A DNA stretch of 64,000 nucleotides from Pseudomonas phage vB_PaeM_RyC23_M4LORT. The position numbers and the translations under genes were made by a program. Each line of letters begins with the position of its first letter. Positions within the stretch are counted from its first letter, which is position 1. Shown here in pieces: positions 1 to 63,725 of this stretch. The stretch lies in sequence record PP781973.1; one strand, 5' to 3'. The notes under the pieces were generated by a model. It did not search any database and was not told the DNA's origin. It saw only the letters and a list, made by a program, of their open reading frames with translations.

Positions 1-126
1 GTCGGCCTTCGACCCCAGCGCCGTCGCGACGATAGCGCCCACGGCGGCGCCTGCAGGCCCACCCAGGAGCGACCCAAGAGCCGGGGCAGCCGCGCCGATC
101 TTACTACCTATGTCCTTCCAGTCCAT
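1..126 (-). CDS. Partial CDS (N-terminus only); Gly/Ala-rich glycine-zipper small membrane protein. Start at 126, continues beyond the window start.
   Basis: Reverse complement reads MDWKDIGSKIGAAAPALGSLLGGPAGAAVGAIVATALGSKAD... with a GAGGAG Shine-Dalgarno 8 nt upstream; GxxxG-type repeats. Confidence 0.4.
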   Translation of the reverse strand, partial: MDWKDIGSKIGAAAPALGSLLGGPAGAAVGAIVATALGSKAD

Positions 127-141
127 TTTCGACTCCTCAGA

Positions 142-168
142 AGAAAGGCGCCATTACAGCGCCTTTCT
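142..168 (-). terminator. Rho-independent terminator-like hairpin downstream of the gene 183-1079
   Basis: AGAAAGGCGC-CATTACA-GCGCCTTTCT perfect 10-bp stem, followed on the minus strand by a U-rich CUUCU stretch. Confidence 0.4.
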
Positions 169-182
169 CCGGCCGGTGATTT

Positions 183-1079
183 TTAGAACTCTTCGGCTTC
201 GGTCGCATCGCCGACGCCACCGGCGTCACTGCGAGGCTGTTCCTGCTTGCTGTAATCCACCTTCACCTCGCCGCCGACGAACGACTTGTACAGGTCGGCC
301 GCAGCCTTGAAGTGATCCGGGTTCTTCACCAGGCCTTCCAGCTCGAACTGGACGCCGGACCAGCTCCCCTTGTCGTTCGACATGCCTACGGTGGTCATAC
401 GGACCAGGTTGGCGAAAGTCGGCGGGGTGCGCAGGCCCTGCGGGGTCTGAACCTTTTTCTGGGACAGCGCGGTCATGAGCTTCTTCGAGGCCTTGATCTG
501 CGAAGACGACAGGGAGATCAGAGCCTGGCCGAAATCGCCGGTGTCCGGATCGATGACGATGACGTAATGACCACGGGTGTCGGCGAAGTAGTCAGACTTC
601 TTGTCGCTGACCGAACCGTCTTCGTTCGGCGCGTACAGGCGTCCTTCGACTTCCTTCACCTTGGTCGGGTCTTTCATCATTTCCTTGAAGTCTTCGACGC
701 TGATGGCGCCCTTGAAACCGCCCTCGGCCTCGCGACCGGCCCAGCGGATGAACTCGCGGCGGTACGCGGCCGGAATGATCAGCAGGCCGGTCTTGCCGTC
801 GTAAACCTTGCCGGTGACGGTGTTCAGGAACATGCCGGCCTTCGCGCCTTCGATGTACTTCGGGTCATCTTCATCGACCTGGGGAGACATCTTCTGCAAA
901 ACCTGGATGAAGGGGATGGCATAGGACTCGGCATCGGCGCCTTCGAAGCCTGCGCCGTCATACGATCCCAAATCCATGAAGTCGGGAACTTCGGTAGTCG
1001 CGACGGCGCCGCCGGTGGCAACTGCTACGGCCTTGGTTTCTTCGGTTGCTTCGGAAGTTTCGGTTTTCTTACCAGCCAT
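183..1079 (-). CDS. Hypothetical replication/recombination-module protein, possibly ssDNA-binding (DUF669-like?), 298 aa
   Basis: Long ORF with a Shine-Dalgarno site; sits in a SNF2 / VRR-NUC / Gp157 neighbourhood; no Walker motifs. Confidence 0.55.
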   Translation of the reverse strand: MAGKKTETSEATEETKAVAVATGGAVATTEVPDFMDLGSYDGAGFEGADAESYAIPFIQVLQKMSPQVDEDDPKYIEGAKAGMFLNTVTGKVYDGKTGLLIIPAAYRREFIRWAGREAEGGFKGAISVEDFKEMMKDPTKVKEVEGRLYAPNEDGSVSDKKSDYFADTRGHYVIVIDPDTGDFGQALISLSSSQIKASKKLMTALSQKKVQTPQGLRTPPTFANLVRMTTVGMSNDKGSWSGVQFELEGLVKNPDHFKAAADLYKSFVGGEVKVDYSKQEQPRSDAGGVGDATEAEEF

Positions 1080-15892: not shown

Positions 15893-15893
15893 T

Positions 15894-20634: not shown

Positions 20635-20660
20635 AGGCCGCCTTCGGGCGGTCTTTTCTT
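20635..20660 (+). terminator. Rho-independent terminator (GGCCGCC-TTCG-GGCGGTC followed by TTTTCTTT)
   Basis: GC stem plus T-tract immediately after the helicase gene. Confidence 0.6.
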
Positions 20661-20699
20661 TGGTGAGGCGTACATTCTATTAGGTTGTGGCCGAGTGAG

Positions 20700-21125
20700 A
20701 TTCGGAAGCTATCTGGTAATTAGGATGGGGTGGCGATGGTGTATTATGGAAAGTTCGTGGACGGTGGATCGAGGATTTTGTGTGGTGAGTGGGTGGATTA
20801 TGGAAAATCGACGATTCTGACTGGATTTTTGGGGTCGGCCGCGCCGGTCTTACTGGTAATTACCGAAACCGGGAATTTGGGTCGAGCCTTAGTGCCGCGT
20901 GGGCTTGAAGCGCTTATTCGGATACTTCCCGGTTTCGGATGCAGCCGCAAAAGTATACTACAGCGAAAATCGATTGCACAATCCTAATAGAAAAAATCTA
21001 TCACGGACGTTACCTATCTTTAAAATTAATAAAATTAATAGTAATTTGGTAATTTGGTAAACTTTAGTATTTGAAAGCCTCGCGGCACTAAGCTTGTACA
21101 TATCCCGTCAAGTTTCCGATTCCAG
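20700..21125. repeat. Iteron-bearing intergenic region 1: GGTG(T/G)ATTATGGAAA x2, CTGGTAATTA x2, GGTAATTTGG x2, a 13-bp inverted repeat (20863-20875 / 20926-20938), and inverted plus direct copies of a conserved box
   Basis: Seen directly in the sequence; the box 21073-21125 matches 40913-40965 at about 85% identity. Confidence 0.7.
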
Positions 21126-21409
21126 CCAGCTCGCGGCAGGGTCGCCGGAAACTTCCGGACTTCCAATCCATGGGTCGCGGCAACACCACGGCGGACTAAG
21201 CGGCAGGCACCAAAACTCGACGAACGGAACCGGAAATTTGGGAGCGCGACAGAATCGCTCAGCTGGACATATTTCTAACATTCTATTTAACACTCAATCC
21301 AAACACTCACCACCATCGTCTCCCGCCAACCGCCGACTCGATCCTCACCCACCAGCGGATCGCCCGTATAACATCCTATAACACCACCTAACACTCATTC
21401 ATCATCAAA

Positions 21410-21433
21410 CCCACCCAGACCTACAGCCCACCC
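21410..21433 (-). other. G-quadruplex motif on the minus strand (GGGTGGG-N10-GGGTGGG) inside a CA-rich non-coding tract spanning 21120-21570
   Basis: Plus strand reads CCCACCCAGACCTACAGCCCACCC; strong strand asymmetry and no ORF. Confidence 0.5.
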
Positions 21434-21570
21434 ACAAGCAGCCCATAGACGCGATCCCTGGCCCCATAGTACAATCGCGCCATACTCAGTGTCGCGGCAG
21501 AGCACCAGGCCCATCCACCACCAACGCCACCGCGACGACTCCAGAATCGAACTCAGGGACGCAGCACCAA

Positions 21571-22140
21571 ATGACCAAACACTACAGCCCCGACGATCTA
21601 GTCACGCCACAGGAATTCGCAGACCCGCATTTCGCGGCGATCAACCAAAAGCGATTCGACCTGTACATCGACCTGCGCGTCCAAGGCTACAGCTCCTGGC
21701 GGGTCTTCCGGGCCATCTGGGGTGAGGAGCACATGGACGGTCCCGCCCAGGCTCGCATCTTCGCGATGGAGTCCAACCCGTACTATCGCAAGCAGTTCAA
21801 GGCCAAGTTGAACGCGACCAAAACGTCCGACTTGTGGAATCCAAAGACGGCGCTCCACGAACTCCTCCAAATGGTTCGTGACCCCACCGTCAAGGACTCC
21901 AGTCGTCTGTCGGCCATCAAGGAATTGAACGTTCTGGCTGAAATCACGTTCGTGGACGAGTCTGGCAAGACCAGGATCGGTCGCGGTTTGGCCGACTTCT
22001 ACGCATCAGAAGCCGAGGCTCAGACCGCGACCGTCGCTGCTGCGGCCGAAGCCAATGGCTATGTGCCGGAAGGCGAAGAGGGCGATTTCCCGTCCCCGAC
22101 GCCGGAACCGACCGAGGAAGACCGCGCCAACCCCATTTAG
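21571..22140 (+). CDS. Hypothetical protein (189 aa) with an acidic C-terminus; small-terminase role possible but not supported
   Basis: ORF starting a plus-strand transcription unit after the non-coding tract; no recognisable motif. Confidence 0.45.
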   Translation: MTKHYSPDDLVTPQEFADPHFAAINQKRFDLYIDLRVQGYSSWRVFRAIWGEEHMDGPAQARIFAMESNPYYRKQFKAKLNATKTSDLWNPKTALHELLQMVRDPTVKDSSRLSAIKELNVLAEITFVDESGKTRIGRGLADFYASEAEAQTATVAAAAEANGYVPEGEEGDFPSPTPEPTEEDRANPI

Positions 22141-24707: not shown

Positions 24708-24757
24708 GTCGAGATTCCTTTTTGGACTTCGGGTCCGGCTTTTCAGTCGGTGAAGAG

Positions 24758-24786
24758 ATTATGCCTGATCATCACCGTCGAGTAAA
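24758..24786 (-). promoter_or_regulatory. Early promoter (TTTACT -35, 17 nt, CATAAT -10)
   Basis: Member of the promoter family (plus-strand consensus GAAGAGATTATGCC...GAGTAAAGCAC). Confidence 0.5.
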
Positions 24787-25098
24787 GCACTTATGGACCA
24801 ATTCTCCAGTTAAATGGAACCACAGCGCGGTATCGCTGATCGCTACGCTTCCGCGCCATGGCCCTTCTTGCTCACAGACTTCGAACCACAAGCTGATTTC
24901 CATCCTTGCCAGGACTCGGCCGAAGGATTCGAGCCGGCGCCGACTGGACAGGATGTCGACATTCACTCGTCGATTGACCTCGTACCGGCGACCGTTGATG
25001 GCGAAGACCAGCCGCAGGGTTTGTCCGTCAAGACACTCCCAGTATCTGGTTTCACACCGAAGCCAATAGCGCTTGCCAGCCGGGCCTACCATGGTCAT
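24772..25098 (-). CDS. Hypothetical protein (109 aa)
   Basis: Start MTMVGP lies 2 nt after the upstream gene's stop; overlaps the promoter at 24758-24786, which weakens the call. Confidence 0.3.
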   Translation of the reverse strand: MTMVGPAGKRYWLRCETRYWECLDGQTLRLVFAINGRRYEVNRRVNVDILSSRRRLESFGRVLARMEISLWFEVCEQEGPWRGSVAISDTALWFHLTGELVHKCFTRR

Positions 25099-26642: not shown

Positions 26643-26664
26643 GTCGCAATCCTCTTTTTGGAGT

Positions 26665-26720
26665 GTTTCGCGTTTCGATGAGGTAACTATACCTCAGTCA
26701 CATCATCGAGTAAAGCACTT
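26665..26720 (-). promoter_or_regulatory. Early promoter/leader cassette (TTTACT -35, 17 nt, TATAGT -10, leader CTCATCGAAACGCGAAACAC)
   Basis: Best match to the family consensus. Confidence 0.6.
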
Positions 26721-26754
26721 TTGAACAGATTGTCTAAAATTTCTGGAAGACAAA

Positions 26755-28740: not shown

Positions 28741-28796
28741 GTTTCGCGTTCGATGAAGAGATTATGACGCTATTCAGAATGGAAGTAAAGCAGAAT
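28741..28796 (-). promoter_or_regulatory. Early promoter/leader cassette (TTTACT -35, 17 nt, CATAAT -10)
   Basis: Family member; the flanking sequence cagaatggaagtaaag is shared with the cassettes at 29060 and 32826. Confidence 0.55.
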
Positions 28797-28882
28797 TGTG
28801 AAATATTTCTCAAAGTGGACGAACGGTATGCCCCGTCAGGAATATTTCCTCCCATGGAAGGCATTTCCGCATCCGAATGTTG

Positions 28883-29059: not shown

Positions 29060-29116
29060 GTTTGTTCGTTTCGATGAAGAGATTATGCCGTTGGTCAGAA
29101 TGGAAGTAAAGTGTAT
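29060..29116 (-). promoter_or_regulatory. Early promoter/leader cassette (TTTACT -35, 17 nt, CATAAT -10)
   Basis: Family member. Confidence 0.55.
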
Positions 29117-29149
29117 TAACAATAAAATTATGTTCACCGACGAACGGTT

Positions 29150-32803: not shown

Positions 32804-32825
32804 GGTCGGTTCCTTTTGTCTGAAG

Positions 32826-32882
32826 GGTTTCGCATTTCAATGGAGCTATTCTGCCTTCATTCAGAATGGAAGTAAAGCACTT
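32826..32882 (-). promoter_or_regulatory. Early promoter/leader cassette (TTTACT -35, 17 nt, CAGAAT -10)
   Basis: Family member. Confidence 0.5.
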
Positions 32883-32889
32883 TCTTCCA

Positions 32890-33327
32890 CTATTTCGGCA
32901 TCGACTGGAAGAAATTCCAGATCCAATCACCTGCTACCAGCAAGAGGATGAGGGCGGCAAAGAACAAGACAGCGGCCGCGAGCTGTGCGCCCGGCTTCAG
33001 TTTGGGATGGCTGAGCTTGGGCTCTACGGGAACGGCCGGAGCGCTAGCGCTGCAACCGGCGTCTCCTGGGCCGTAGCCGATGCCGCGTTCACACGCCTGG
33101 AACGACACCAGGGATTTAAGATACTCGGTCTGCTTTTGCGACTCTTCGTAGATGCCGGCGACGGCGAACCAGAGGGCGAACACTACTGACGTACACACAA
33201 CCCAGGCGCCGGTCAGCAGGAGGGCCAGCGGGCCGATGACGAAGACGGTAGCAGCCAGGACGATTGCGCCGCCCCAGATGATGAAGCCGGCCAGACCATT
33301 AGTGATGTCGACACAGAACTTTTTCAT
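32890..33327 (-). CDS. Polytopic membrane protein (3-4 transmembrane helices; holin- or superinfection-exclusion-like)
   Basis: Start MKKFCVD; multiple hydrophobic helices. Confidence 0.45.
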   Translation of the reverse strand: MKKFCVDITNGLAGFIIWGGAIVLAATVFVIGPLALLLTGAWVVCTSVVFALWFAVAGIYEESQKQTEYLKSLVSFQACERGIGYGPGDAGCSASAPAVPVEPKLSHPKLKPGAQLAAAVLFFAALILLLVAGDWIWNFFQSMPK

Positions 33328-39416: not shown

Positions 39417-40252
39417 TGGCATTCAAGGCCTCCAAAAAGCGCGAGCGCCGGGCACCTCTTCCAGTCGGAAGAGGGAAGCCCATAATTCCATCGGCAGGAA
39501 TCGAGGCCTGGTATCGAAAGCAGATGAAGGATATGTCCAAGCTCATGATCTCCGACTATCGAAACGAGATTGAGAAGGCGCTGTCCCAGCCTGCGGCCGA
39601 ACGTTTCTTCGCCAGAGACGAATCCGTTAACGTCCTGTTCAAGATGACCCTTCGAAGCCTACAGCAGCGATGGAGCCGCATTTTTGAAGGTTTCGCGGCC
39701 AAGATCGCCCCGGAGTTCGTCAACCGGACCGAAGAAGCCGCTACCGCCGCGACCCTTCACAGCTTGTCGGTGGCCGGCGTCGATCAGCCACGAGCTGCGT
39801 ATAATGAGAGCGTCAGGAACACCCTGGAGGCCGCAACCACTTACAATCATACTCTCATCACCAAGATCCAAGAGGAAGTCCACGAGAAGATTTACACATC
39901 AGTAATGCTGTCTCTGACTTCCCCGAATCCGGAAGAGCAAGGAACTTCCGGCATAACTAACGCACTTCGCAAAGTCGGGAAGTTTTCTGAAGATCGAATC
40001 GAACTCATCGCAAGAGATCAAACAAGCAAGCTTTACAGTTCTCTGAGCGATGAGAGAATGGCGGAAAATGGAGTCGAGGAGTTCGAGTGGCTACACTCTT
40101 CTGCCGGCAAGACTCCTCGCCACACCCACCTGGAGAAAGATGGGAAGAGGTTCAAGCTGAATGACCCCAGACTTTGGGAGGGTCCGAAAGCAGACCAGGG
40201 GCCGCCAGGATGGGCGATTAACTGTAGATGCAGAAAGATACCAGTCATTTGA
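39413..40252 (+). CDS. Phage Mu F-like (SPP1 gp7) minor head / head-morphogenesis protein
   Basis: C-terminal signature HTHLEKDGKRF...PPGWAINCRCR; ATGA overlap with the portal gene. Confidence 0.85.
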   Translation: MMAFKASKKRERRAPLPVGRGKPIIPSAGIEAWYRKQMKDMSKLMISDYRNEIEKALSQPAAERFFARDESVNVLFKMTLRSLQQRWSRIFEGFAAKIAPEFVNRTEEAATAATLHSLSVAGVDQPRAAYNESVRNTLEAATTYNHTLITKIQEEVHEKIYTSVMLSLTSPNPEEQGTSGITNALRKVGKFSEDRIELIARDQTSKLYSSLSDERMAENGVEEFEWLHSSAGKTPRHTHLEKDGKRFKLNDPRLWEGPKADQGPPGWAINCRCRKIPVI

Positions 40253-40270
40253 CATCGATAGGAGCGCTAT

Positions 40271-40477
40271 ATGCCGTTAGTTCATGGCACTTCCAATGAG
40301 GCTCGTTCTGAAAACATCAAGCGGGAAATCGAAGCCGGTAAAGACCCAAAGCAGGCTGCGGCCATCGCTTATTCCATCCAGCGCAGTGAGGAAGGGAAGA
40401 CGGCGAAAGATTGTTCGCCTGAGCTCGTCGCCGATCTTCGCGCCCTGGTGGACGCTCTGTCGAGGCTCGTGAAATGA
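40271..40477 (+). CDS. Small hypothetical protein (68 aa)
   Basis: ORF. Confidence 0.4.
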
Positions 40478-40614
40478 ACCGCAAGACGTGCCGGCGCCGA
40501 CTCGTGGTCGATGTAATCAGGGCCAATATTCACGGCGGATTCTTCAGCCTGAAGTTTGCCGCCATCGATTTGGCAATCATCGGCGTCGCCATCTTGATGG
40601 CTTTTGGCCGATAA
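40474..40614 (+). CDS. Small single-transmembrane-helix protein (46 aa) [46 protein letters not shown]
   Basis: ATGA overlap with the upstream gene; not in the ORF track. Confidence 0.3.
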
Positions 40615-40639
40615 TGCTGAGAAAAATCTGGATTCTGAC

Positions 40640-40995
40640 TAAAAATTCTAGTCCGGATAGCCGCAAGTTACCGTTTACGGAAAATAGCAGTAATTTGGAA
40701 ATCCTACTGCCGCGAGGCTTTAACAGAGCCAGTTCCTAATTTCCGATTTAGCCGCATGCTTCAAAAGTATATAGCCTGGGAAATTAGAAGTAACGTTCCA
40801 ATAGAATTCATCTATAAGTAACGTTATAATATAACGTCAATCTATATGCTCTAGACGTATTGAAATTCAATTTTTAATCGGTAAATTGGTAATTTGAATT
40901 AGTTTAGGAGTTGAAAGCCTCGCGGCAGTAGGCTTAGACAAATCCCGTCAAGTTTCCGAGACCAAATTACCGGATTTTCGCGGCTGAGGAAACTG
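40640..40995. repeat. Iteron-bearing intergenic region 2: inverted copy (40694-40712) and direct copy (40914-40932) of the 19-bp box AAAGCCTCGCGGCAGTAGG, GGTAA(A)TTTGG repeats, CTGGTAATTA, and the shared element CCCGTCAAGTTTCCGA
   Basis: Same architecture as region 1 (20700-21125); seen directly. Confidence 0.7.
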
Positions 40996-41127
40996 GTAAT
41001 TAGATCACAATACAAATTATAATGTAAGTTAACAGTCACGGCTACATCTAATTATTGTTCCGCTTATTTACCCTTAGATGTACTGCGTATATAATACAGC
41101 CATAGTCCACGACTCTTCGAATTAACG

Positions 41128-42561
41128 ATGGCAAAGTCGAAAAGAAAAATTGACGAAAATGGATATATGACCATAGAGGGCTGCCCGATCAGCTCTTATG
41201 GCGTTTTCCAATATTCTGCTGGTCAACTCGGTCTTCCGGGCGATCCGACGCGGATTGTCAACGTATATCGCCCGGAGTCTGCCGTCAGCGATCCGGAGTA
41301 CATCGAATCTCTGAAGAATCTCCCGTTGATCGACGAGCATGAGATGCTGTCGGGATTCGACGATGATGACGATAGCGTGGCCCCCGAAGACAAAGGGGTG
41401 GAGGGCATCATCACATCCAACGCTTACTACGAAGCCCCATGGGCACGCGGCGATATCCGCATCTATTCCCGCAACATGCAGAATCAGCTGGAAAGGGGCA
41501 AAGAAGACCTGTCCCTAGGCTATAGTTGCCGCTACACTGAGCAACCCGGCATCTGGAACGGGACGCCTTATGAAGTCGTCCAGGACAAGATGCGCGGCAA
41601 CCACATCGCCCTGGTAAAAGAGGGTCGTGTGCCGGGGGCCAGAGTATTGGATGGTCTGTGTTTTGACCATCTCAGTTTTGATTTCAGACCATCCGATGAG
41701 GGTAATGAAATGAGTCTCAAGAAAGCCAAGCGGAAGCCCCCTGTCCAGCGCGTAGGGCAAGCTGCTGACTCGGCGGTCGAAGAGTTGCGCGCCCTGTGGC
41801 CGAAGCTATCTGCGTCTGTCCAGAAGTTCCTGGGCGAAGAAGAGCAGGAGCCGGAGCATCAGGAAGGCGCAGCTCCGGCCGAACCGACCGACAGCGAGCA
41901 CCTGACCGAGCATCCGACTCTGGAAGGTGCTCAGAAGGATGACGAAGAGCAGGAAGAGGAGCCTTCCGTTGTCGATCCGGCCGTGGCCGCCGTCGAGCCG
42001 GAGCATCAAGAAGGTGCCGCATCCGAAATGTCCGGTGAAGGCGAAGTCGCCGAACTGATCTCTCAAGTCAAGGCCATTCTGGCTCGACTGGAGGGCACGG
42101 TAGCCGAAGGGGCGGACGAAGAGCATGGCGAAGGTCAAGATGTCGTCGAGGGCTTGGAAGAGCAGAGCAGCCTCAGCGGCGCGCAAACCGCCAGCGACGA
42201 TGGTGGTGAGGGCAAGGATAACAGCGAGGAACTTCCTGAAATGGCACAGAAGAACGCGCAAGATGCTGCAATTCGCGGTCTCTATCGCGACATTGCTGCT
42301 AAAGATCGCCTCTACAAGCGTCTTAGCTCCGTGGTTGGTGCGTTCGATCACCGAGCTATGGACTCGGCTGAAGTCGCTGTTTACGGCGTGAAAAAGCTGA
42401 ACATCAGCTGTGCGAAGGGCCAGGAAGCTCTGGCGCTCGACATGTACCTGAAAGGCGTCGAAGCCTCGCGCGGCGCGGCCAGCCGTCAATCGAAAGCCCA
42501 GGATTCGGCCGGTTCTGCTCCGCAGTGCGCCGAGCTGGACAGCTACCTGAAGGGGGAGTAA
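41128..42561 (+). CDS. Putative prohead protease / scaffolding fusion (Mu gpI-like N-terminus, acidic C-terminal scaffold-like region)
   Basis: N-terminal about 190 aa with a GNHIALVKEGR-type motif; the following ~250 aa are Glu/Asp-rich low complexity; sits between the Mu F-like gene and the capsid gene. Confidence 0.5.
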   Translation: MAKSKRKIDENGYMTIEGCPISSYGVFQYSAGQLGLPGDPTRIVNVYRPESAVSDPEYIESLKNLPLIDEHEMLSGFDDDDDSVAPEDKGVEGIITSNAYYEAPWARGDIRIYSRNMQNQLERGKEDLSLGYSCRYTEQPGIWNGTPYEVVQDKMRGNHIALVKEGRVPGARVLDGLCFDHLSFDFRPSDEGNEMSLKKAKRKPPVQRVGQAADSAVEELRALWPKLSASVQKFLGEEEQEPEHQEGAAPAEPTDSEHLTEHPTLEGAQKDDEEQEEEPSVVDPAVAAVEPEHQEGAASEMSGEGEVAELISQVKAILARLEGTVAEGADEEHGEGQDVVEGLEEQSSLSGAQTASDDGGEGKDNSEELPEMAQKNAQDAAIRGLYRDIAAKDRLYKRLSSVVGAFDHRAMDSAEVAVYGVKKLNISCAKGQEALALDMYLKGVEASRGAASRQSKAQDSAGSAPQCAELDSYLKGE

Positions 42562-42564: not shown

Positions 42565-43200
42565 ATGTTCCAGAAACAAGTTTACCGCCAGTACACTCCT
42601 GGTTTTCCGGGCGATCTGATCGAGGACGGCCCGAAGCGGGCGCGGCCGGGTCGAATCATGTCTCTGTCTGCCGTAAATCCGGCTGCCACCGCCACCGGCC
42701 CCAACCGCATCAGTCGCGCTTTCGGTTACGCCGGTGACGTCAGCGCCCTCGGCGAAGGTCAGCCGAAGACCATCGCGGCTCGCGCTTCTGAAGTCGTGAT
42801 CGGCGGCGCCAACTTCTTTGGTGTCCTCGGTCATCCGAAGCACTATGCGCTGTTCGGTTCGGCCGGAGACTCCCTGGCTCCCAGCTATGATCTGCCCGAT
42901 GGCGCCGAAGGCGAGTTCTTCGACATGGCCACCGGCCTGGTCGTCGAAATTTTCAACGGCGCCGCAACCGCCCTGGACCTGGACTATGGTGACCTGGTCG
43001 CCTATGTCCCCAACAACCTGGCTACCGCCGACAACGCGCTTGGCCTGCCGGCCGGCGCCCTGGTTGGCTTCAAGGCTGGCTCCATGCCGACCGGCTTGGT
43101 CCAGATTCCCAACGCACGCATCGTTAACGCCATCAGTCTGCCGGCCCAGTCGGCGGGGAATCTGGTTGCTGGCGTTACCATCGTCCAGCTCACGCAGTAA
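42565..43200 (+). CDS. Hypothetical head protein (possibly decoration), 211 aa
   Basis: Gly/Ala-rich; located between the scaffold gene and the major capsid gene. Confidence 0.45.
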   Translation: MFQKQVYRQYTPGFPGDLIEDGPKRARPGRIMSLSAVNPAATATGPNRISRAFGYAGDVSALGEGQPKTIAARASEVVIGGANFFGVLGHPKHYALFGSAGDSLAPSYDLPDGAEGEFFDMATGLVVEIFNGAATALDLDYGDLVAYVPNNLATADNALGLPAGALVGFKAGSMPTGLVQIPNARIVNAISLPAQSAGNLVAGVTIVQLTQ

Positions 43201-43209
43201 GGAGGCGTC

Positions 43210-44358
43210 ATGAGCCAGATCAGCAAGACCCATTCGCGCCTCGCAGGCCGCAATGCGAAACCTTTCGACCTGAAAAACATCACCAATGACGCCGTGGCGT
43301 CTCTGCGCCGCATCGGCCTGGTATTCGATCACGCCGTCGTCCAGGACCAGATCAAGGCCTTGGCGAAGGCCGGCGCGTTCCGCTCCGGCTCGGCCATGGA
43401 CAGCAACTTCACCGCCCCGGTGACCACGCCGTCCATCCCGACTCCCATCCAGTTCCTGCAGACCTGGTTGCCAGGCTTCGTGAAGGTCATGACCGCTGCA
43501 CGGAAGATCGACGAAATCATCGGCATCGATACCGTTGGCTCCTGGGAAGATCAAGAAATCGTCCAGGGCATCGTGGAGCCGGCCGGCACTGCGGTGGAAT
43601 ACGGCGACCATACCAACATCCCGCTGACCAGCTGGAACGCCAACTTCGAACGCCGCACCATCGTTCGTGGCGAGCTGGGTATGATGGTGGGTACCCTGGA
43701 AGAGGGTCGCGCCTCGGCCATCCGTCTGAACAGCGCCGAAACCAAGCGCCAACAGGCGGCCATCGGTCTGGAAATCTTCCGCAACGCCATCGGTTTCTAC
43801 GGCTGGCAGAGCGGCCTGGGCAACCGCACCTATGGTTTCCTGAACGATCCCAACCTGCCGGCATTCCAGACCCCGCCGAGCCAGGGCTGGTCCACTGCCG
43901 ACTGGGCAGGCATCATCGGCGACATCCGCGAGGCCGTTCGCCAGCTGCGTATTCAGAGCCAAGATCAGATCGATCCGAAGGCGGAAAAGATCACCCTGGC
44001 CCTGGCCACCAGCAAGGTGGACTACCTGTCGGTAACCACGCCTTACGGCATTTCGGTTTCGGACTGGATCGAACAGACCTATCCGAAAATGCGGATCGTG
44101 TCGGCTCCGGAATTGTCCGGCGTCCAGATGAAAAACCAAGAGCCGGAAGATGCTCTGGTGCTCTTCGTCGAAGACGTGAACGCGGCCGTCGATGGCAGCA
44201 CCGATGGCGGCAGCGTGTTCAGCCAGCTGGTACAGAGCAAGTTCATCACCCTGGGTGTCGAAAAGCGGGCGAAGTCGTACGTGGAAGACTTCTCCAACGG
44301 CACCGCCGGTGCGCTGTGCAAGCGTCCGTGGGCTGTGGTGCGCTACCTCGGCATCTAA
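43210..44358 (+). CDS. Major capsid protein (Mu T / DUF2184-like)
   Basis: 382 aa, in major-capsid position after scaffold; a terminator follows. Confidence 0.7.
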
Positions 44359-56898: not shown

Positions 56899-58152
56899 AT
56901 GGCTAACTACAACTACATCGTCGATACTGGTGTGATAGTCGCAGATACCGCCGACGTTCTGAGCGACGTTGAGGCCGAGTTCCGCGCCGCCCTCGGTGCC
57001 AATATCAACTTGGCCGCGAGCACTCCGCAGGGATCGCTTGTCGCGGCCGAGGCCATCGCCCGTTCCAGTGTCATGCGGAATGAAGCGCGAATTGCCAATA
57101 CCATAAACCCGAACGTTTCATTCGGAACGTTCCTGGACGCGATCTGTGCCTTGATGGGGATCGAGCGCGGTTCTGATCTGTCAACCTTCGGCTATGGAGT
57201 TCAAGTCACCGGCCGCAGCCAAACCCGCATTTCCACCGGGTCTAGGGTCCAGACTCCGGCCGGCGCGATCTTCACAGTGATGAGCGATGTCACGATCCCT
57301 GCTGGTGGTGTCGCGACCATCGATATCAAATCGCAGGAGTATGGCAACATTCCTCTGCCGGTCGGGAATCTCATAATCATCGACGGAACAATTGGGTGGT
57401 CCGGAGCAAAAGTCATCGCCTCCACTCGCGTCGATCCGGGCAGCCGCCAAATGAGCGATGCAGAGTTGAAGAATGCCCGCGTTAATCGATTGGCCATCCA
57501 AGGCCGCAACTCGACTATGGCCATCAAGGCGTATGTGAGCGCCGTTCCAAACGTCACGTCGGTGAACGTAATCGAGAACAACACCGGCGCCGTTCAAGTG
57601 GTGAATGGAGTCTCGTTTACCCTTCCGTATGCTGTTTGGGTCTGCGTCGCCGGAAACCCGGATAAACAAGCAGTCGCCGATGCGTTGTGGGCCGCCCATA
57701 ACGGCGGAACTCCATGGGACTATGGTGCGACGAACAACGGCGTCCCGGTGGACGGTCCGAACGGCGTTCCTGTGCGCGATCCGGCGTCCGGTCGAAAGTA
57801 TGTCGTGAAGTGGACCACTCCAATCATGTACGATGGATATGTTAACGTAACAGTCCAGCAAGGTTCCTCCTCTGTAGCTCCGGAAGCCATTCAGAACGCA
57901 GTGGTCAATTACGCCCAGGGGAAAGTGGAAGGGGAAGAGGGGCTGGTGGTGGGCGCGAGCCTGTCGGCATTCGAAGTCGCCGGAGCCATCGCTCGCGAAA
58001 TTCCCGGCATCTACATCAAACTCTGCCAGGTCGCGTGCGTCGCGGCTGGCTCGCCGGCTCCGGCTCCGGGCGATTTCACTTCGGAATACGTCATGAGCGC
58101 ATTCGGCCAGGCTACCATTTCCGTTGGTAACGTTCGGGTGACTTTCGTATGA
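56899..58152 (+). CDS. Baseplate J-like protein (P2 J / Mu gp47 family)
   Basis: 417 aa; typical size, position and sequence character. Confidence 0.65.
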   Translation: MANYNYIVDTGVIVADTADVLSDVEAEFRAALGANINLAASTPQGSLVAAEAIARSSVMRNEARIANTINPNVSFGTFLDAICALMGIERGSDLSTFGYGVQVTGRSQTRISTGSRVQTPAGAIFTVMSDVTIPAGGVATIDIKSQEYGNIPLPVGNLIIIDGTIGWSGAKVIASTRVDPGSRQMSDAELKNARVNRLAIQGRNSTMAIKAYVSAVPNVTSVNVIENNTGAVQVVNGVSFTLPYAVWVCVAGNPDKQAVADALWAAHNGGTPWDYGATNNGVPVDGPNGVPVRDPASGRKYVVKWTTPIMYDGYVNVTVQQGSSSVAPEAIQNAVVNYAQGKVEGEEGLVVGASLSAFEVAGAIAREIPGIYIKLCQVACVAAGSPAPAPGDFTSEYVMSAFGQATISVGNVRVTFV

Positions 58153-59663
58153 CTCTGCCTGCGTACAATTCGGACATCCAACAAGCTCTGAAATGGCTCC
58201 ATAACCAGGCGCCTGGAATCACCGGCCTGATCCAGAGAAAGGCGCAATGGTATGACAGATTCAGCCGCCAATTCTGGGCCAACTGGGAGCGCGACGTTTT
58301 CCACTTGAAAACTGCCAACCCGTTCGGCCTTATGGTTTGGTGCATCATCCTCGGCACGCCTTCGAAAGGGTTCGGCCTTTATCCAAAAAACAGTTCTTGG
58401 GCATTCGGTCGGCTACGCCAGAACTTCATCTATAGCGGTACACAAGTTCCGCCACCGGCAGACGCATCGCCTGGCGGCAACTTCTACGGTGGCGGCAATG
58501 CCGAAATTCTCAACTTGGACGAAATCAGGAAAGTGCTTCAGCTAAGATATGTAGCGCTGATTTCTAACGGCTCGATTGCATATGTCAATCGCATGCTTCG
58601 TTACATATTCAATGATGATGAGCCATGGGACGAGGCGACCGGTCTGTACTTCTATCTCATGGACTCAACCGGCGAGAATGGCCCTGTGGAGAACTTGGCG
58701 ATATATCGGAAAGATTGGGAAGGTATGGTGCTGTTGTCCAGTTCGCCCAGAACGAACCATGTGCTGACATCGACCCCTGCCAGCGACGCCGATTGGCCGG
58801 GAGTCGATCCGGCCGCGAGCGGTATTCCGGTAACGGTCGAAACGGCGTCCGCTACGGCCCCGGACGGCTCCGCTACGGTGTGCAAGCTTACTAAGCCGGC
58901 CGGGAGTACTGCTTACGTCTCCGCGCCGATAGATGGGCCGCTGGGGTCCGGTAGCACTGTAACGTTCTCGTTCTTCGCGAAAGCCGGCTCCACCCGTTTC
59001 ATTGCAATTCAGTCGGCTGCCGATTTCCCCAGTCGAGCCGATGCCGTTTTCGACCTGGATTCCGGGAACGTGATCAGCGATCAGATGTTGGACAGCAGCG
59101 TGGTAAGCGCCCGAATGATTCGTCTGGAAAATGGCTGGTGGCGTTGCGTTCTCACGACCAAGACCGTCAGCTCTTCGTTCCGCGCTGCTTACGTCGCTCC
59201 GGCAGAAACCAACTTCAGCTGGATTGATTCGAATTCCAGCGCGGCGATTGACGTGCTTATATGGGGCGCTCAGATCGAACTGGGTGATACTCCAACTGGA
59301 TACTTGGAGACTACCGGGGCGCCCGTAACCATCACCGATTATGTTTTGCAGAACGCCCAGACCGGAACAGTCAAGTTCACACAGCCCCTTCCGACCGGAG
59401 TAGAAGCGTATTGGACTGGAGACTGGAAAGGCGGGTCTGCGACCGAGCCGGCCAGATTCGCAGTAGGGGATGGGACTCAAGATGCATTCAATTTGTCCAG
59501 CCCTGCATACATCGGCCTACCCACTAGTGGGGCGTTCAAGCTAGAATACAGAGTTGGTCCGGCGCTTAATTTGTCGCCGCAATTGATCAACCTCATGAAT
59601 GACCGGGCGGTCGGTATCATGCCGACTTGCGCCGGTTGCGATGTAAAAGTCATTCAGGAGTAA
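58149..59663 (+). CDS. Baseplate wedge / tail-fibre-proximal protein (P2 I-like, DUF2612-like N-terminus)
   Basis: 504 aa; overlaps the J gene by 4 nt. Confidence 0.55.
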   Translation: MTLPAYNSDIQQALKWLHNQAPGITGLIQRKAQWYDRFSRQFWANWERDVFHLKTANPFGLMVWCIILGTPSKGFGLYPKNSSWAFGRLRQNFIYSGTQVPPPADASPGGNFYGGGNAEILNLDEIRKVLQLRYVALISNGSIAYVNRMLRYIFNDDEPWDEATGLYFYLMDSTGENGPVENLAIYRKDWEGMVLLSSSPRTNHVLTSTPASDADWPGVDPAASGIPVTVETASATAPDGSATVCKLTKPAGSTAYVSAPIDGPLGSGSTVTFSFFAKAGSTRFIAIQSAADFPSRADAVFDLDSGNVISDQMLDSSVVSARMIRLENGWWRCVLTTKTVSSSFRAAYVAPAETNFSWIDSNSSAAIDVLIWGAQIELGDTPTGYLETTGAPVTITDYVLQNAQTGTVKFTQPLPTGVEAYWTGDWKGGSATEPARFAVGDGTQDAFNLSSPAYIGLPTSGAFKLEYRVGPALNLSPQLINLMNDRAVGIMPTCAGCDVKVIQE

Positions 59664-59667: not shown

Positions 59668-61914
59668 GTGATCACACCCGAACTGATACCCAGTCCGTTT
59701 GCTGCGCAGGGCGACAAAGACCCGATTCCGCAGACCTCTTCCACTGGTTTTGCCAACCTTCGCGACGGCTACACGCCGGACTACGAAATCAGTCTGGCGT
59801 CGAACAACCCGCAGGCCAAAGCGGTCGAGCGGAAAATTCAAAACCAACTCTTCTTCATCGCGACCCAGAACGCACAGGCGTGGCAGCGACAAATGGCACC
59901 GCCGTGGTTTCAGGGCATGCCTGGCGGCTACGAACAGAATGCAGAAGTCGTGCGCGTCGGAAATGACGGCATAATGCGGCGTTATCGTTCCATGGTGAAT
60001 GCCAATGCGAGCGACCCTCTCAGCAGCACGACTTGGGAAGAACAACCCGCATGGTCGGCGATGCGCTCCAACATCCCGATGCCGGCCGGAGGCCCAGGCC
60101 TATCTTCTGGCGGAGAAGTCATCACGACCGGCCGCAACTTCAACGACCTGTTAAATGGGACGTGGGAGTTCTTCTCTGATTCAGTGGTTATCGCTTCTCA
60201 GAATGCCCCCGTATATCCGGCTTCCGCTGGTGCCGCTGCTGGCATGTTGGAGGCGAAATCTTGGGTGTCCGGAGCCAATACGTTCTGCGTCCAACGCTAC
60301 ACTGATCGCGTCGGGAACGTCGCTGTGCGCGGGCTTAATGCCGGAGCGTGGACCAACTGGATGTATGCGGTAAACGTCATGGCCCTTCAACAAGGTCGGG
60401 TCACCTATGGAGTCGCGGCCGGATCGGCGAACGCTTACACGTTGACGCTAGTTCCGCAGCTCCAAGGCGGCCTGGTGGATGGCATGATTCTTCGGGTCAA
60501 GTTCAATACCATGAACACCGGCGCCTCCACCATCAACGTCTCCGGACTCGGCGCCAAAGCCATCGTCGGCGCGGCCAACTTCCCTCTCACCGGCGGCGAA
60601 CTTGGCCAAGGACTCATCGCTGAGCTTGTATTCGACGCAGCAGGCGACCGCTGGAGAATCCTCGCAGGCGCGTCACGCATCCAAGTTGGCAACGCCGATC
60701 AGGACTACCAGGCGCCGAGTTGGAAGCAAGTTAAAGACTATGTCGCGTCCCAAAAGCTCACCGAAGTGGATTGGACGGATGTCGTCAACAAGCCGAACGT
60801 CGCTATCCAAGATACAACGCCGTGGTTCGCCAATCTGGAGCTGTCCGATGCTCGGCCTTTCATCGATTTCCACTTCAACAGCAATCGCGCCAAAGATTTT
60901 GACTATCGGCTGATATCTGAAGCAGACGGATCGCTGGCTTTCTATTCGCGGCAGGGGTCTGCTGGGCCTACCCAGGACATCCTGTTCAACCGAAATTCCG
61001 TGACTTTCTTCCAGCCGCGACTCGATGTGGCGAAAAACCTCGCGTACATCGCGAACTCTGGCCCCCTTTGGCAGAACACCACCGCCGATCAGCCCGGTTG
61101 GAAATTCACCTTTGCACAAGGCGTGGACGCGAACAACAACGCGGTGATCGCAGTCAATACCACCAATCCGGACGGTTCCTATCGTTCACAGGTCATGCGA
61201 TGGGACTGGGCGTCCACGAACGTCATATTCAACAACCGTCCGCTCTTCGCCGGTCAATACACCCCTTGGGATTCTGGGAACTTCGATCCTTCCACCAAGT
61301 TGACGGTGAGCGCCACGAACCAAATCGCCGGCCCAACGGGGATTTGGAATACCAACGGCAACACCGGCAACATGAACACCTGGGGTTCCGGCTCCACGAC
61401 GGCATCCTATGGCAATGCTGCCATTCAAATCTTCGGAAAAGGGGGCGGTGAGCCTGCCGCGATCTATTTCGACAACTCCCAGACCGGATGGTATCTGGGC
61501 ATGGACAAGGATGGACAGCTCAAGCGGGCCGGCTGGTCGCTCGGCAATAACTCCTATGTGATCACCGACGAATCCAACATCCGAACCCATATCAACACAA
61601 TGGCTGCGCGCCCGATTTGGGGGAATGTCGAGTTCTGGGGTCCGTGGAACTTCGATCCGAATCTTAAACTCACTTTGAACGCTTTCAATGATAGCTCATA
61701 CACCAGGATGACCAACAGCGGCGCGAAAGACGTTGGTATCGCGTCCATGACGAGTTATGCTGATGCGGCCATGTCATTCTTCAACTATGAAGCCTCGAAT
61801 CCGACCGGGCCGCGCGCGGCCGTTATTTCGTTCGTGAGAAATGGATCGCGTGGAGTGCTATTCGGCTTGGATTCTGACAACAAGCTGAAGTGGGGCGGAT
61901 ATTTTCGTTCGTGA
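59668..61914 (+). CDS. Tail fibre protein, apparently truncated by a 77-bp tandem duplication
   Basis: 748 aa; the ORF ends ...GGYFRS* inside the second repeat copy. Confidence 0.65.
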   Translation: MITPELIPSPFAAQGDKDPIPQTSSTGFANLRDGYTPDYEISLASNNPQAKAVERKIQNQLFFIATQNAQAWQRQMAPPWFQGMPGGYEQNAEVVRVGNDGIMRRYRSMVNANASDPLSSTTWEEQPAWSAMRSNIPMPAGGPGLSSGGEVITTGRNFNDLLNGTWEFFSDSVVIASQNAPVYPASAGAAAGMLEAKSWVSGANTFCVQRYTDRVGNVAVRGLNAGAWTNWMYAVNVMALQQGRVTYGVAAGSANAYTLTLVPQLQGGLVDGMILRVKFNTMNTGASTINVSGLGAKAIVGAANFPLTGGELGQGLIAELVFDAAGDRWRILAGASRIQVGNADQDYQAPSWKQVKDYVASQKLTEVDWTDVVNKPNVAIQDTTPWFANLELSDARPFIDFHFNSNRAKDFDYRLISEADGSLAFYSRQGSAGPTQDILFNRNSVTFFQPRLDVAKNLAYIANSGPLWQNTTADQPGWKFTFAQGVDANNNAVIAVNTTNPDGSYRSQVMRWDWASTNVIFNNRPLFAGQYTPWDSGNFDPSTKLTVSATNQIAGPTGIWNTNGNTGNMNTWGSGSTTASYGNAAIQIFGKGGGEPAAIYFDNSQTGWYLGMDKDGQLKRAGWSLGNNSYVITDESNIRTHINTMAARPIWGNVEFWGPWNFDPNLKLTLNAFNDSSYTRMTNSGAKDVGIASMTSYADAAMSFFNYEASNPTGPRAAVISFVRNGSRGVLFGLDSDNKLKWGGYFRS

Positions 61915-61979
61915 GAAATGGATCGCGTGGAGTGCTATTCGGCTTGGATTCTGACAACAAGCTGAAGTGGGGCGGATAT
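61826..61979. repeat. Perfect 77-bp direct tandem duplication (2 x 77 bp)
   Basis: ttcgttcgtgagaaatggatcgcgtggagtgctattcggcttggattctgacaacaagctgaagtggggcggatatt appears twice back to back. Confidence 0.85.
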
Positions 61980-62633
61980 TCCCTAGGGGCCGTCGCGTTC
62001 GAGATTGCCGACTCCAACAACCTCATGAGCCTGTGGTCATCCCACGCTGCCGCGCCGAACTGGAACGGGCAGACCATCTGGAGGTCGGGAAACTTCAACC
62101 CAGACACCAAGGCGACTTTGGCAGCTCGCAATACGACGTCATCCCCTACAATATTCAGTTATGGGGCGTCCGGAATCGCATCAACCGGACAGGTCGGTGC
62201 GTTGGTTGTGGAAAACAACAGCGTCACCAATACCGCAGCCGCCATCACGTTCCATTCGCCGCAGAAATATCAGGTCAACTTCGGCCTGGATGCGGACAAC
62301 GTGGTAAAGATCGGTGGCGGCACAATGGGCGGCGTAGCATATCCCATCATCCACTCCGGCAACTACAACAACTACATCAACCAGGCGCTGGTTCAGGTGG
62401 GTCTTGGCGGAGTCGGTTCCTACGCGATCCTTGCCGTGTACGATACTTCCGCACCGGCATCGTCCGTTGGACCTGGTACCATCTTGGACAGTTCCAAGCT
62501 GTTCTATTCGTCCTGCGATTCGACCTATCGCAGCAGCGCCCGTCCGACGGGCACCTGGCGCTGCATGGGGTATGTGTATAACCGAGACTCCACCAACGGC
62601 GACTCGGCATCCCTATTCCAGCGGGTAACGTAA
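61890..62633 (+). CDS. Tail fibre C-terminal segment, separated from 59668-61914 by the duplication-induced frameshift
   Basis: Starts MGRIFSFVRNGSRGVLFGLDSDNKLKWGGY, the same peptide that ends the upstream ORF. Confidence 0.5.
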   Translation: MGRIFSFVRNGSRGVLFGLDSDNKLKWGGYSLGAVAFEIADSNNLMSLWSSHAAAPNWNGQTIWRSGNFNPDTKATLAARNTTSSPTIFSYGASGIASTGQVGALVVENNSVTNTAAAITFHSPQKYQVNFGLDADNVVKIGGGTMGGVAYPIIHSGNYNNYINQALVQVGLGGVGSYAILAVYDTSAPASSVGPGTILDSSKLFYSSCDSTYRSSARPTGTWRCMGYVYNRDSTNGDSASLFQRVT

Positions 62634-62634: not shown

Positions 62635-63063
62635 ATGAAATGGACGCGGATCAGAAACCCACGTTGGCTGGACGCGGTAAACATCCACGCCATGGTTACT
62701 TTCGAGGGGATCGGGGAAGTTCCTTTCACCGCCAATCCGCACGACGTGGAGGCCCACGGAAGGGCCATCCACGCTGCGATCCTATCCGGGGCGCACGGAC
62801 CTATCGCCCCGGTCGATGCGAAGCGGGAGCAGGCCTTGCAGGACGCTATACGGGCCAGGGAAAAGCGGGCTATCCTTCGTGATACCCGCTGGCCCATAGA
62901 TCGTCACGACGAGCAGAGGCGGCTGGGTATCGAAACCACGGACGAGCCTGGGCTGATAGCAGCCCTTGTTCACTGGAGGCAGCAGATTCGCGATTGGAAT
63001 AGCGGGGATCGGCCGCGACTTCCCATGGCTCTGAAAACGATGTTCAAAAATCAGGAGTATTGA
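62635..63063 (+). CDS. Putative tail fibre assembly/chaperone protein (142 aa)
   Basis: Position immediately after the fibre gene. Confidence 0.4.
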   Translation: MKWTRIRNPRWLDAVNIHAMVTFEGIGEVPFTANPHDVEAHGRAIHAAILSGAHGPIAPVDAKREQALQDAIRAREKRAILRDTRWPIDRHDEQRRLGIETTDEPGLIAALVHWRQQIRDWNSGDRPRLPMALKTMFKNQEY

Positions 63064-63725
63064 TGAAAATCACAAAGGATATTCTTATCACCGGAACCGG
63101 GTGCACCACGGATCGGGCGATCAAGTGGCTGGATGACGTCCAGGCGGCCATGGATAAATTCCACATCGAGTCGCCGCGAGCCATTGCGGCCTACCTCGCC
63201 AACATCGGCGTCGAGTCCGGTGGACTGGTGAGTCTGGTGGAGAATCTCAACTACAGCGCCCAAGGATTGGCCAACACATGGCCGCGCCGGTACGCAGTAG
63301 ACCCGCGAGTCCGCCCATATGTCCCGAATGCTCTGGCTAAACGCCTGGCCCGTAACCCGGTTGCCATCGCTAACAACGTGTACGCGGATCGTATGGGTAA
63401 TGGTTGTGAGCAGGATGGTGACGGTTGGAAGTATCGCGGGCGCGGCCTGATCCAGCTGACCGGGAAGTCGAACTATTCACTGTTCGCCGAAGACTCCGGA
63501 ATGGACGTTCTGGAGAAGCCGGAGCTTCTGGAAACTCCGGCCGGCGCGTCGATGTCTTCGGCCTGGTTCTTCTGGCGCAATCGCTGCATCCCCATGGCGG
63601 AATCCAACAACTTCTCCATGGTCGTGAAAACCATCAACGGCGCCGCGCCGAACGATGCGAACCATGGCCAGCTCCGGATCAACCGTTATATGAAGACCAT
63701 CGCCGCGATCAATCAAGGCTCCTGA
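63060..63725 (+). CDS. Endolysin, glycoside hydrolase family 19 (chitinase-like lysozyme)
   Basis: AYLANIGVESGGL and YRGRGLIQLTGKSNY motifs. Confidence 0.85.
   Translation: MMKITKDILITGTGCTTDRAIKWLDDVQAAMDKFHIESPRAIAAYLANIGVESGGLVSLVENLNYSAQGLANTWPRRYAVDPRVRPYVPNALAKRLARNPVAIANNVYADRMGNGCEQDGDGWKYRGRGLIQLTGKSNYSLFAEDSGMDVLEKPELLETPAGASMSSAWFFWRNRCIPMAESNNFSMVVKTINGAAPNDANHGQLRINRYMKTIAAINQGS

What the first reader, a model, noticed from the sequence alone, without database searches (positions are those of the whole stretch)
61826..61979. Perfect 77-bp tandem duplication frameshifts the tail-fibre gene into two ORFs
The unit 61826-61902 is repeated exactly at 61903-61979. Because 77 is not a multiple of 3, the fibre ORF (59668-61914) terminates inside copy 2 (...KWGGYFRS*), while a new ORF (61890-62633) begins inside copy 1 and re-encodes the same peptide (FSFVRNGSRGVLFGLDSDNKLKWGGY) before continuing into the presumed receptor-binding C-terminus. 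Removing one copy restores a single ORF of about 960 aa. This could be an assembly or sequencing artefact, a recent spontaneous duplication, or a slippage hot-spot acting as an on/off switch for fibre length or host range.
Basis: seen in the sequence. Interest (0 to 1): 0.65.

Follow-up and report, generated by a model that had tools for sequence, protein, structure and literature searches.

The report
Assembler overlap artefact splitting fibre gene
The exact 77-base doubling that breaks this Pseudomonas phage's tail-fibre gene is almost certainly a leftover genome-assembly overlap (77 is the SPAdes default word size) and not biology, so the real gene is one ordinary 962-residue fibre.

Summary
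Window 61826-61902 is repeated exactly at 61903-61979, and this splits the tail-fibre gene into ORFs of 748 and 247 aa. Deleting one copy restores a 2889-nt, 962-aa ORF.

The window is a PB1-like Pseudomonas phage (Pbunavirus). About 294 related public records match the fibre gene. Every record inspected carries one copy and a single fibre ORF, including two whose fibre gene is 1 nt different. The duplication junction is absent from four public collections.

The biological readings are not supported. 77 nt is the overlap SPAdes leaves at both ends of a contig when a circularly permuted phage genome assembles as a circle, as Pbunaviruses do. Rotating or joining such a contig without trimming gives an exact 77-nt tandem repeat at an arbitrary place.

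The same artefact class is present in sibling GenBank records. Three of seven checked have end-equals-start overlaps: 127 nt in PTLAW2, inside this same gene; 127 nt in Wadjak 8; and 255 nt in Epa22.

The split would detach the receptor-binding end from the baseplate-binding end of an essential trimeric fibre.

Verdict: not a real feature, confidence about 0.88. Only the raw reads or a PCR can settle it.

The parts
61826..61902 (+). Copy 1 of the 77-nt unit. It is the genuine sequence of fibre codons 720-745.
   Evidence: Identical to copy 2. The single-copy segment is identical in P1420, PTLAW1, bmx-p2, USP_1 and phiDCL-PA6.
61903..61979 (+). Copy 2 of the 77-nt unit. This is the redundant copy, interpreted as a retained k=77 assembler overlap. 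Which of the two copies is called 'extra' is arbitrary.
   Evidence: Alignments to P1420 and PTLAW1 break at 61903 with a 78-nt overlap in the subject, so this is a pure 77-nt insertion. The junction is absent from all collections scanned.
59668..61914 (+). Apparent ORF1 (748 aa): fibre residues 1-745 plus the out-of-frame tail FRS and a stop inside copy 2.
   Evidence: The baseplate-docking loops at residues 38-52 lie in this part (PMC11456595).
61890..62633 (+). Apparent ORF2 (247 aa, GTG start), a mechanical ORF. Its real content is fibre residues 721-962, read from copy 2 onward. There is no Shine-Dalgarno-like sequence upstream.
   Evidence: The 20 nt upstream are GATTCTGACAACAAGCTGAA.
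59668..62633 (+). True gene: Pbunavirus long tail fibre. It is 2889 nt / 962 aa once one 77-nt copy is removed, and is the homologue of Pa193 gp47.
   Evidence: The restored ORF differs by 1 nt (R560W) from the P1420 and PTLAW1 fibre CDS. It matches PDB 9b45 chain 2 'gp47 Tail fiber' over residues 1-962, 2114 bits.
58149..59663 (+). Upstream baseplate wedge protein (504 aa, DUF2612). By position it is the Pa193 gp46 homologue that carries the fibre-attachment loop.
   Evidence: Pfam DUF2612, E=1.4e-14. Gene order as in P1420 and PTLAW1. The gp46-gp47 interface is described in PMC11456595. The homology to gp46 is inferred from position.
62635..63063 (+). Small downstream gene (142 aa). It is annotated 'tail fiber protein' or 'hypothetical' in relatives and is a probable fibre assembly factor by position (inference).
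   Evidence: No Pfam hit.
63060..63725 (+). Endolysin (glycoside hydrolase 19 / chitinase class I fold). It gives genomic context only.
   Evidence: Pfam PF00182, E=2.3e-7. Annotated as endolysin or putative chitinase in relatives.

Best explanation
The duplication is a genome-assembly artefact, not a property of the phage. Pbunaviruses package DNA by the headful mechanism and have circularly permuted genomes, so short reads assemble into a circle. A de Bruijn graph assembler writes that circle as a linear contig whose last k bases repeat its first k bases. With SPAdes default settings on reads of about 150 nt, the final k is 77. If the contig is then rotated to a new start, read across the record's origin, or joined to a neighbouring contig that overlaps by k, and the overlap is not trimmed, the two copies end up head to tail. 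The result is an exact 77-nt tandem repeat at an arbitrary position, here codons 720-745 of the tail-fibre gene. Because 77 is not a multiple of 3, gene callers see two ORFs. The real gene is a single 962-aa trimeric tail fibre. Shown: the exact repeat, its length, its absence from every relative inspected, and the same artefact class in sibling records. Inferred: that this particular record was assembled with k=77 and then rotated or joined.
For: (1) The copies are 100% identical and exactly 77 nt long. [quoted passage not shown] A 2026 preprint describes trimming such overlaps before re-ordering genomes, Pbunaviruses included.
(2) Pbunaviruses are headful-packaging and circularly permuted (PMC12390725; PMC12345254).
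(3) The artefact class was found directly in sibling GenBank 'complete genome' records. PTLAW2's last 127 nt equal its first 127 nt, and this overlap maps to window 59781-59907, inside the same fibre gene. Wadjak 8 has 127 nt and Epa22 has 255 nt. That is 3 of 7 records checked.
(4) About 294 phage records match the fibre gene. All 30 best hits span 2889 nt against the 2966-nt query. In a spread of 60 records (100% to ~71% identity), every match that crosses the duplicated segment is consistent with one copy (full-length matches 724 vs 801 nt).
(5) The junction sequence has no hit in the phage collection, IMG/VR, GTDB genomes or JGI metagenomes.
(6) Deleting one copy gives an ORF 1 nt different from the P1420 and PTLAW1 fibres.
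(7) Flanking microhomology is 0 nt on one side and 1 nt on the other, as expected for an arbitrary cut and not for slippage between direct repeats.
(8) The split would separate the baseplate-binding N-terminus from the host-range-determining C-terminus of a fibre that is one continuous 962-aa chain in a trimer. ORF2 has no ribosome-binding site. A phage grown for sequencing should not carry this as its consensus.
(9) The only other split fibre gene in the hit list (phage 6959) is caused by a 1-nt insertion next to an 'N'. P1420 carries a 751-bp chimeric duplication in its head gene. Gene-splitting sequence errors are therefore common in this set of records.
Against: The source record, its assembler and its reads are unknown, so k=77 is inferred from the length alone. 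In the window the repeat is internal, not at the sequence ends, so a further step (rotation, contig joining or wrap-around extraction) has to be assumed. Real tandem duplications with little microhomology do occur. The fibre also carries a unique R560W change, so this isolate's fibre is not simply identical to its relatives.
Confidence: 0.88

Rival explanations
1. A genuine spontaneous 77-bp tandem duplication that reached high frequency in the sequenced lysate. This could be a defective fibre mutant carried along at high multiplicity of infection by complementation from wild-type co-infecting phage. It would revert readily by recombination between the two copies.
For: Tandem duplications do arise in phage genomes (general knowledge). 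This isolate's fibre has another private change, R560W, so its fibre gene has some history of its own. Nothing in the sequence alone can distinguish a real exact duplication from an artefactual one.
Against: The length coincides exactly with the SPAdes default k. The junction has only 0 and 1 nt of microhomology. The change is an out-of-frame disruption of the fibre, which is conserved as one 962-aa ORF in every good record examined. It would uncouple baseplate attachment from receptor binding. No start signal precedes ORF2. A defective genome is unlikely to be the majority consensus of a plaque-purified stock.
Confidence: 0.08
2. A functional arrangement: the duplication acts as a reversible on/off or length switch for the fibre, or the two polypeptides assemble non-covalently into a working fibre with altered host range.
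For: The fibre C-terminus controls host range in Pbunaviruses (PMC13307970). An exact tandem repeat is in principle reversible by recombination. The duplicated segment covers one of three copies of an internal fibre motif (aa 610, 732, 846).
Against: There is no recurrence in the ~85 inspected records out of ~294 matching, and no junction hit in four large collections. There is no copy-number variation in relatives, no ribosome-binding site for ORF2, and no precedent found in the Pbunavirus literature searched. Genuine repeat expansion in fibres would be expected to be in frame.
Confidence: 0.02
3. A different technical origin from the SPAdes k-mer overlap, for example a manual join of two overlapping contigs or amplicons, a polishing or scaffolding error, or a duplication introduced when the window or record was linearised across its origin.
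For: Other artefact types exist in sibling records: a 255-nt overlap in Epa22, which is not a SPAdes default k, and a 751-bp chimeric duplication in P1420.
Against: The length is exactly 77 and the identity is perfect, which the k=77 overlap explains most simply. This rival differs from the best explanation only in the software step involved and leads to the same conclusion, that the feature is not real.
Confidence: 0.02

Closest known systems
De Bruijn-graph terminal k-mer overlap of circular assemblies (SPAdes 77-bp or 127-bp 'artificial direct terminal repeat')
   Same: The copies are exactly identical. The length equals the default final k (77). The genome type is circularly permuted and assembles as a circle. 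The position is arbitrary and ignores gene boundaries. The same phenomenon was seen at the ends of sibling records PTLAW2 and Wadjak 8 (127 nt).
   Different: Here the two copies are adjacent inside the sequence and not at its two ends. That requires a rotation, join or wrap-around step which could not be verified.
Pseudomonas phage Pa193 gp47 / E217 and 14-1 gp45 long tail fibre (Pbunavirus)
   Same: After one copy is removed the protein is 962 aa and matches PDB 9b45 gp47 over its full length. The gene order of baseplate wedge, fibre, small gene and endolysin is the same.
   Different: Apart from the artefactual 77-nt insertion, the only difference is one private substitution, R560W.
Slipped-strand contingency loci / phase-variable repeats
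   Same: A repeat inside a surface-recognition gene whose copy number sets the reading frame.
   Different: Contingency loci have short units in many copies, with copy number varying between relatives. Here there is one 77-nt unit, two copies, a single record, and no variation in any relative inspected.
Genuine phage direct terminal repeats (e.g. T7-like short DTRs)
   Same: An exact direct repeat that looks like a tandem duplication when the genome is circularised.
   Different: Pbunaviruses package by headful and show no DTR signal (PMC12390725). A DTR inside a conserved coding sequence that is contiguous and single-copy in relatives is not plausible.

Membership tests
Assembler k-mer overlap artefact (SPAdes-type) | The two copies are 100% identical. 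| tested here: met
   77/77 identical.
Assembler k-mer overlap artefact (SPAdes-type) | The repeat length equals a k value used by the assembler (SPAdes defaults end at 77 or 127). | tested here: met
   The length is exactly 77. The 77-bp overlaps of default SPAdes are documented in PMC9409062. The assembler actually used for this record is unknown.
Assembler k-mer overlap artefact (SPAdes-type) | The genome assembles as a circle (circular or circularly permuted). | tested here: met
   The literature describes Pbunaviruses as headful-packaging and circularly permuted. Sibling records start at arbitrary positions, and 3 of 7 retain end=start overlaps.
Assembler k-mer overlap artefact (SPAdes-type) | The extra copy is absent from independent assemblies of the same or near-identical genomes. 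| tested here: met
   All ~85 inspected rows are single-copy, including P1420 and PTLAW1 whose fibre gene is 1 nt different. The junction is absent from four collections.
Assembler k-mer overlap artefact (SPAdes-type) | No sequencing read supports the copy1-copy2 junction beyond k-length overlap. | not testable with these tools
   Raw reads and the source accession are not available.
Pbunavirus long tail fibre (Pa193 gp47 family) | Full-length sequence homology to the structurally characterised fibre, as a single chain. | tested here: met
   This holds for the restored ORF: PDB 9b45_2, residues 1-962 to 1-962, 2114 bits. The sequence as written in the window is split into two ORFs.
Pbunavirus long tail fibre (Pa193 gp47 family) | Located between the DUF2612 baseplate wedge gene and the small gene plus endolysin. 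| tested here: met
Phase-variable (slipped-strand) switch | Copy number varies among close relatives or populations. | tested here: not met
   One copy in every relative inspected.
Phase-variable (slipped-strand) switch | Short repeat unit in multiple copies, or flanking direct repeats that promote slippage. | tested here: not met
   A 77-nt unit in two copies, with 0 and 1 nt of flanking microhomology.
Programmed ribosomal frameshift joining two ORFs | The two-ORF arrangement is conserved in relatives. | tested here: not met
   Relatives encode a single 962-aa ORF. The only other split (phage 6959) lies next to an ambiguous base.

The most novel reading that the evidence does not exclude
The 77-bp duplication is real and present in viable phage. 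Either it is a readily reversible tandem duplication that switches the fibre off and on, or it produces a two-piece fibre. Under either reading, out-of-frame tandem duplication would be a way for a strictly lytic phage to modulate adsorption or host range.
Probability: 0.02. Interest if true: 0.6.

Novelty: not a real feature. Interest (0 to 1): 0.06.

Why it matters
As biology it does not matter. The fibre gene is the ordinary, well-characterised Pbunavirus fibre.

As data quality it has some practical value. Pbunaviruses are used in phage therapy, and a record that shows a broken receptor-binding fibre could mislead host-range prediction, pangenome and core-gene counts, or regulatory review.

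The check also showed that untrimmed assembler overlaps are frequent in public 'complete' Pbunavirus genomes (3 of 7 sampled). An exact tandem or terminal repeat of 55, 77, 99 or 127 nt in a phage record should be treated as an artefact until reads say otherwise.

Tried and rejected
- **Identifying the source record.** I tried a junction megablast against 50,697 phage records, exact junction scans of IMG/VR, GTDB genomes and JGI metagenomes, and exact-sequence look-ups of the 748-aa, 247-aa, 202-aa and restored 962-aa proteins. All were negative. The assembler and reads therefore stay unknown, and the first protein look-ups may also have failed because of the GTG-to-V translation.
- **Real slippage.** Rejected as the main explanation because there is no flanking direct repeat.
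- **Programmed frameshift or a conserved two-gene fibre.** Rejected because relatives have one ORF.
- **Genuine direct terminal repeat.** Rejected because Pbunaviruses are headful packagers.
- **ORF2 as an independently translated receptor-binding protein.** No Shine-Dalgarno-like sequence precedes GTG 61890 or the next in-frame starts.
- **Reported fibre frameshifts or duplications in Pbunaviruses.** The literature search found none. The frameshifts mentioned concern host genes or the Bdi2 and gp88 genes.
- **Pfam on the fibre and the downstream 142-aa protein.** No families were found.
- **tRNA and Rfam scans of the window.** Both were empty.
- **Structure prediction.** I did not run it, because a full-length PDB match (9b45) already identifies the protein.

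Full report
**1. Observation**

Window 61826-61902 and 61903-61979 are identical 77-nt units (Tandem Repeats Finder period 77, 2.0 copies, 100% matches, score 310; script check). The identity extends 0 nt to the left and 1 nt to the right. It is the only exact direct repeat of 25 nt or more in the whole 64-kb window, so chance is not an issue.

The ORF list confirms a 748-aa ORF at 59668-61914 that ends ...KWGGYFRS* inside copy 2, and a 247-aa GTG-initiated ORF at 61890-62633 that starts inside copy 1. Deleting one copy gives a 2889-nt ORF of 962 aa with no internal stop.

One small correction applies. The shared peptide is 25 residues (SFVRNGSRGVLFGLDSDNKLKWGGY). The preceding residue is I in ORF1 and F in ORF2.

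**2. What the locus is**

The window is a PB1-like Pseudomonas aeruginosa myophage (genus Pbunavirus). The fibre region matches 294 phage records, almost all of them Pseudomonas phages. The whole window is about 99% identical to vB_PaeM_P1420 (OQ968807) and vB_PaeM-PTLAW1 (PQ879542).

The gene order is:

- baseplate wedge
- DUF2612 baseplate protein (58149-59663)
- fibre
- a 142-aa gene
- GH19 endolysin

This is the same order as in those records.

The restored 962-aa protein matches PDB 9b45 chain 2, 'gp47 Tail fiber', over residues 1-962 (2114 bits, three chains). That entry is the phage Pa193 fibre. There are six trimeric fibres of about 500 Å, and their N-terminal loops (residues 38-52) dock on baseplate gp46 (PMC11456595). 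In Pbunaviruses the C-terminal end contacts the cell. The receptor is L-rhamnose of the LPS core, and swapping fibres that diverge mainly in their C-terminal 69 residues changes host range (PMC13307970).

**3. Comparison with relatives**

Alignments of the window to P1420 and PTLAW1 break exactly at 61903 with a 78-nt overlap in the subject. The only structural difference here is therefore a clean 77-nt insertion.

- All 30 best records span 2889 nt against the 2966-nt query.
- In a spread of 60 records from 100% down to about 71% identity, every full-length match spans 724 nt against the 801-nt query.
- Seven fibre genes translated directly are all 962 aa, with an identical residue 715-750 segment.
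- The restored window gene differs from the P1420 and PTLAW1 genes by one nucleotide (R560W).
- A 50-nt probe across the copy1-copy2 junction finds nothing in 50,697 phage records.
- A 40-nt exact junction pattern finds nothing in IMG/VR, GTDB genomes or JGI metagenomes.
- The only other record in the hit list with a split fibre (phage 6959) owes the split to a 1-nt insertion next to an ambiguous 'N'.

**4. Mechanism**

The length is the key clue. [quoted passage not shown] PMC5923482 describes the 127-bp version as an assembly artefact to be trimmed. A 2026 preprint that includes Pbunaviruses describes trimming these overlaps before re-ordering genomes. Pbunaviruses are headful-packaging and circularly permuted (PMC12390725; PMC12345254), so they assemble as circles.

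If such a contig is rotated to a new start, read across its origin, or joined to a graph neighbour without trimming, the two k-length copies become an exact tandem repeat at an arbitrary place.

I tested whether this artefact class exists in this phage group by comparing the first and last bases of seven GenBank 'complete genome' records.

| Record | Exact end-equals-start overlap |
|---|---|
| PTLAW2 (PQ798946) | 127 nt, mapping to window 59781-59907, inside the same fibre gene |
| Wadjak 8 (OP310974) | 127 nt |
| Epa22 (MT108729) | 255 nt |
| bmx-p2, vB_PaeM_1450, PTLAW1, P1420 | none |

Rotating the PTLAW2 record would create an exact 127-nt tandem duplication in its fibre gene, which is the analogue of the finding. 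P1420 additionally carries a 751-bp near-exact duplication with a 50-nt inverted spacer that splits its major head gene. This shows that gene-splitting assembly errors are common in these records.

**5. Why a real duplication is unlikely**

- The junction has essentially no microhomology (0 and 1 nt). This fits an arbitrary cut better than slippage between direct repeats.
- The change is out of frame in a gene that is conserved as a single 962-aa ORF in every good record examined.
- ORF1 would keep the baseplate-docking end but lose the last 217 residues, including the host-range-determining tip.
- ORF2 has no Shine-Dalgarno-like sequence before GTG 61890 or the next in-frame starts.
- A phage propagated to sequencing titre should not have this as its consensus genotype.
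- Nothing suggests a hot-spot or switch. No other record or metagenome contains the junction, and no relative shows copy-number variation.

**6. What remains unproven**

I could not identify the source record or its reads. The use of SPAdes with k=77 and the rotation or joining step are therefore inferred. The repeat is internal in the window, and about 2277 nt of the genome lie outside the window between its end and its start. A genuine, recent, probably defective duplication stays possible at roughly 8%, and a functional switch at roughly 2%. Read mapping or a simple PCR across 61750-62050 (224 bp versus 301 bp) would settle it.

**7. Verdict**

The feature is not real, the underlying gene is an already known Pbunavirus tail fibre, and interest is low (0.06). 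The useful by-product is a data-quality point: exact repeats of 55, 77, 99 or 127 nt in phage records, whether terminal or tandem, should be presumed assembler overlaps, and several public Pbunavirus 'complete genomes' still contain them.

Noticed in passing
window 61345 (fibre codon 560): The window has T where P1420, PTLAW1, bmx-p2, USP_1, JG024 and phiDCL-PA6 have C, giving R560W in the fibre shaft. It is the only difference from the P1420 and PTLAW1 fibre genes. It could be a real adsorption or host-range variant or a base-call error.
   Followed up: partly
GenBank PQ798946.1 (L007/L008), OP310974.1 (L015/L016), MT108729.1 (L011/L012): Three public Pbunavirus 'complete genome' records retain exact end-equals-start overlaps: PTLAW2 127 nt, Wadjak 8 127 nt, Epa22 255 nt. 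PTLAW2's overlap lies in the fibre gene, and the record annotates a spurious 'tail fiber protein' CDS at 16..258.
   Followed up: yes
OQ968807.1 (L005) 14489-16030; corresponds to window 42730-43480: P1420 contains a 751-bp duplication with 1 mismatch. The copies are separated by a spacer containing a 50-nt inverted copy of adjacent sequence. It splits the major head protein gene into two annotated CDSs and looks like a chimeric or hairpin assembly artefact.
   Followed up: partly
OL362269.1 (L017) about nt 1245 of the fibre gene: Phage 6959's fibre is annotated as two CDSs because of a 1-nt insertion directly next to an ambiguous base 'N'. This is a sequence-quality error.
   Followed up: yes
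window 10853-10918, 24747-24806, 26658-26734, 28749-28809, 29070-29130, 32820-32896: A family of roughly 60-nt repeats (64-74% identity) shares TTCGATGA...AGTAAAGCAC. They may be phage regulatory elements such as promoters or terminators. No Rfam family matches.
   Followed up: no
window 21041-21124 and 40881-40964: An 84-nt direct repeat pair (82% identical) begins GTAATTTGGTAATTTG. The copies lie in stretches where no ORF of 120 aa or more was listed (about 20609-21571 and 40252-41128). Function unknown.
   Followed up: no
window fibre protein aa 610, 732, 846: The fibre contains three copies of the motif [F/L]G[L/M]DxDxx[L/V]K in similar ~35-residue contexts, which suggests an internal structural repeat of the shaft. 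The 77-nt unit happens to cover the middle one.
   Followed up: partly
window 12452-12798: A degenerate array of CTCGGCTTCCTTC-type units (9 overlapping copies of 59 nt, 63-81% identity) lies inside the 296-aa minus-strand ORF 12029-12919. The region is repetitive and low-complexity.
   Followed up: no
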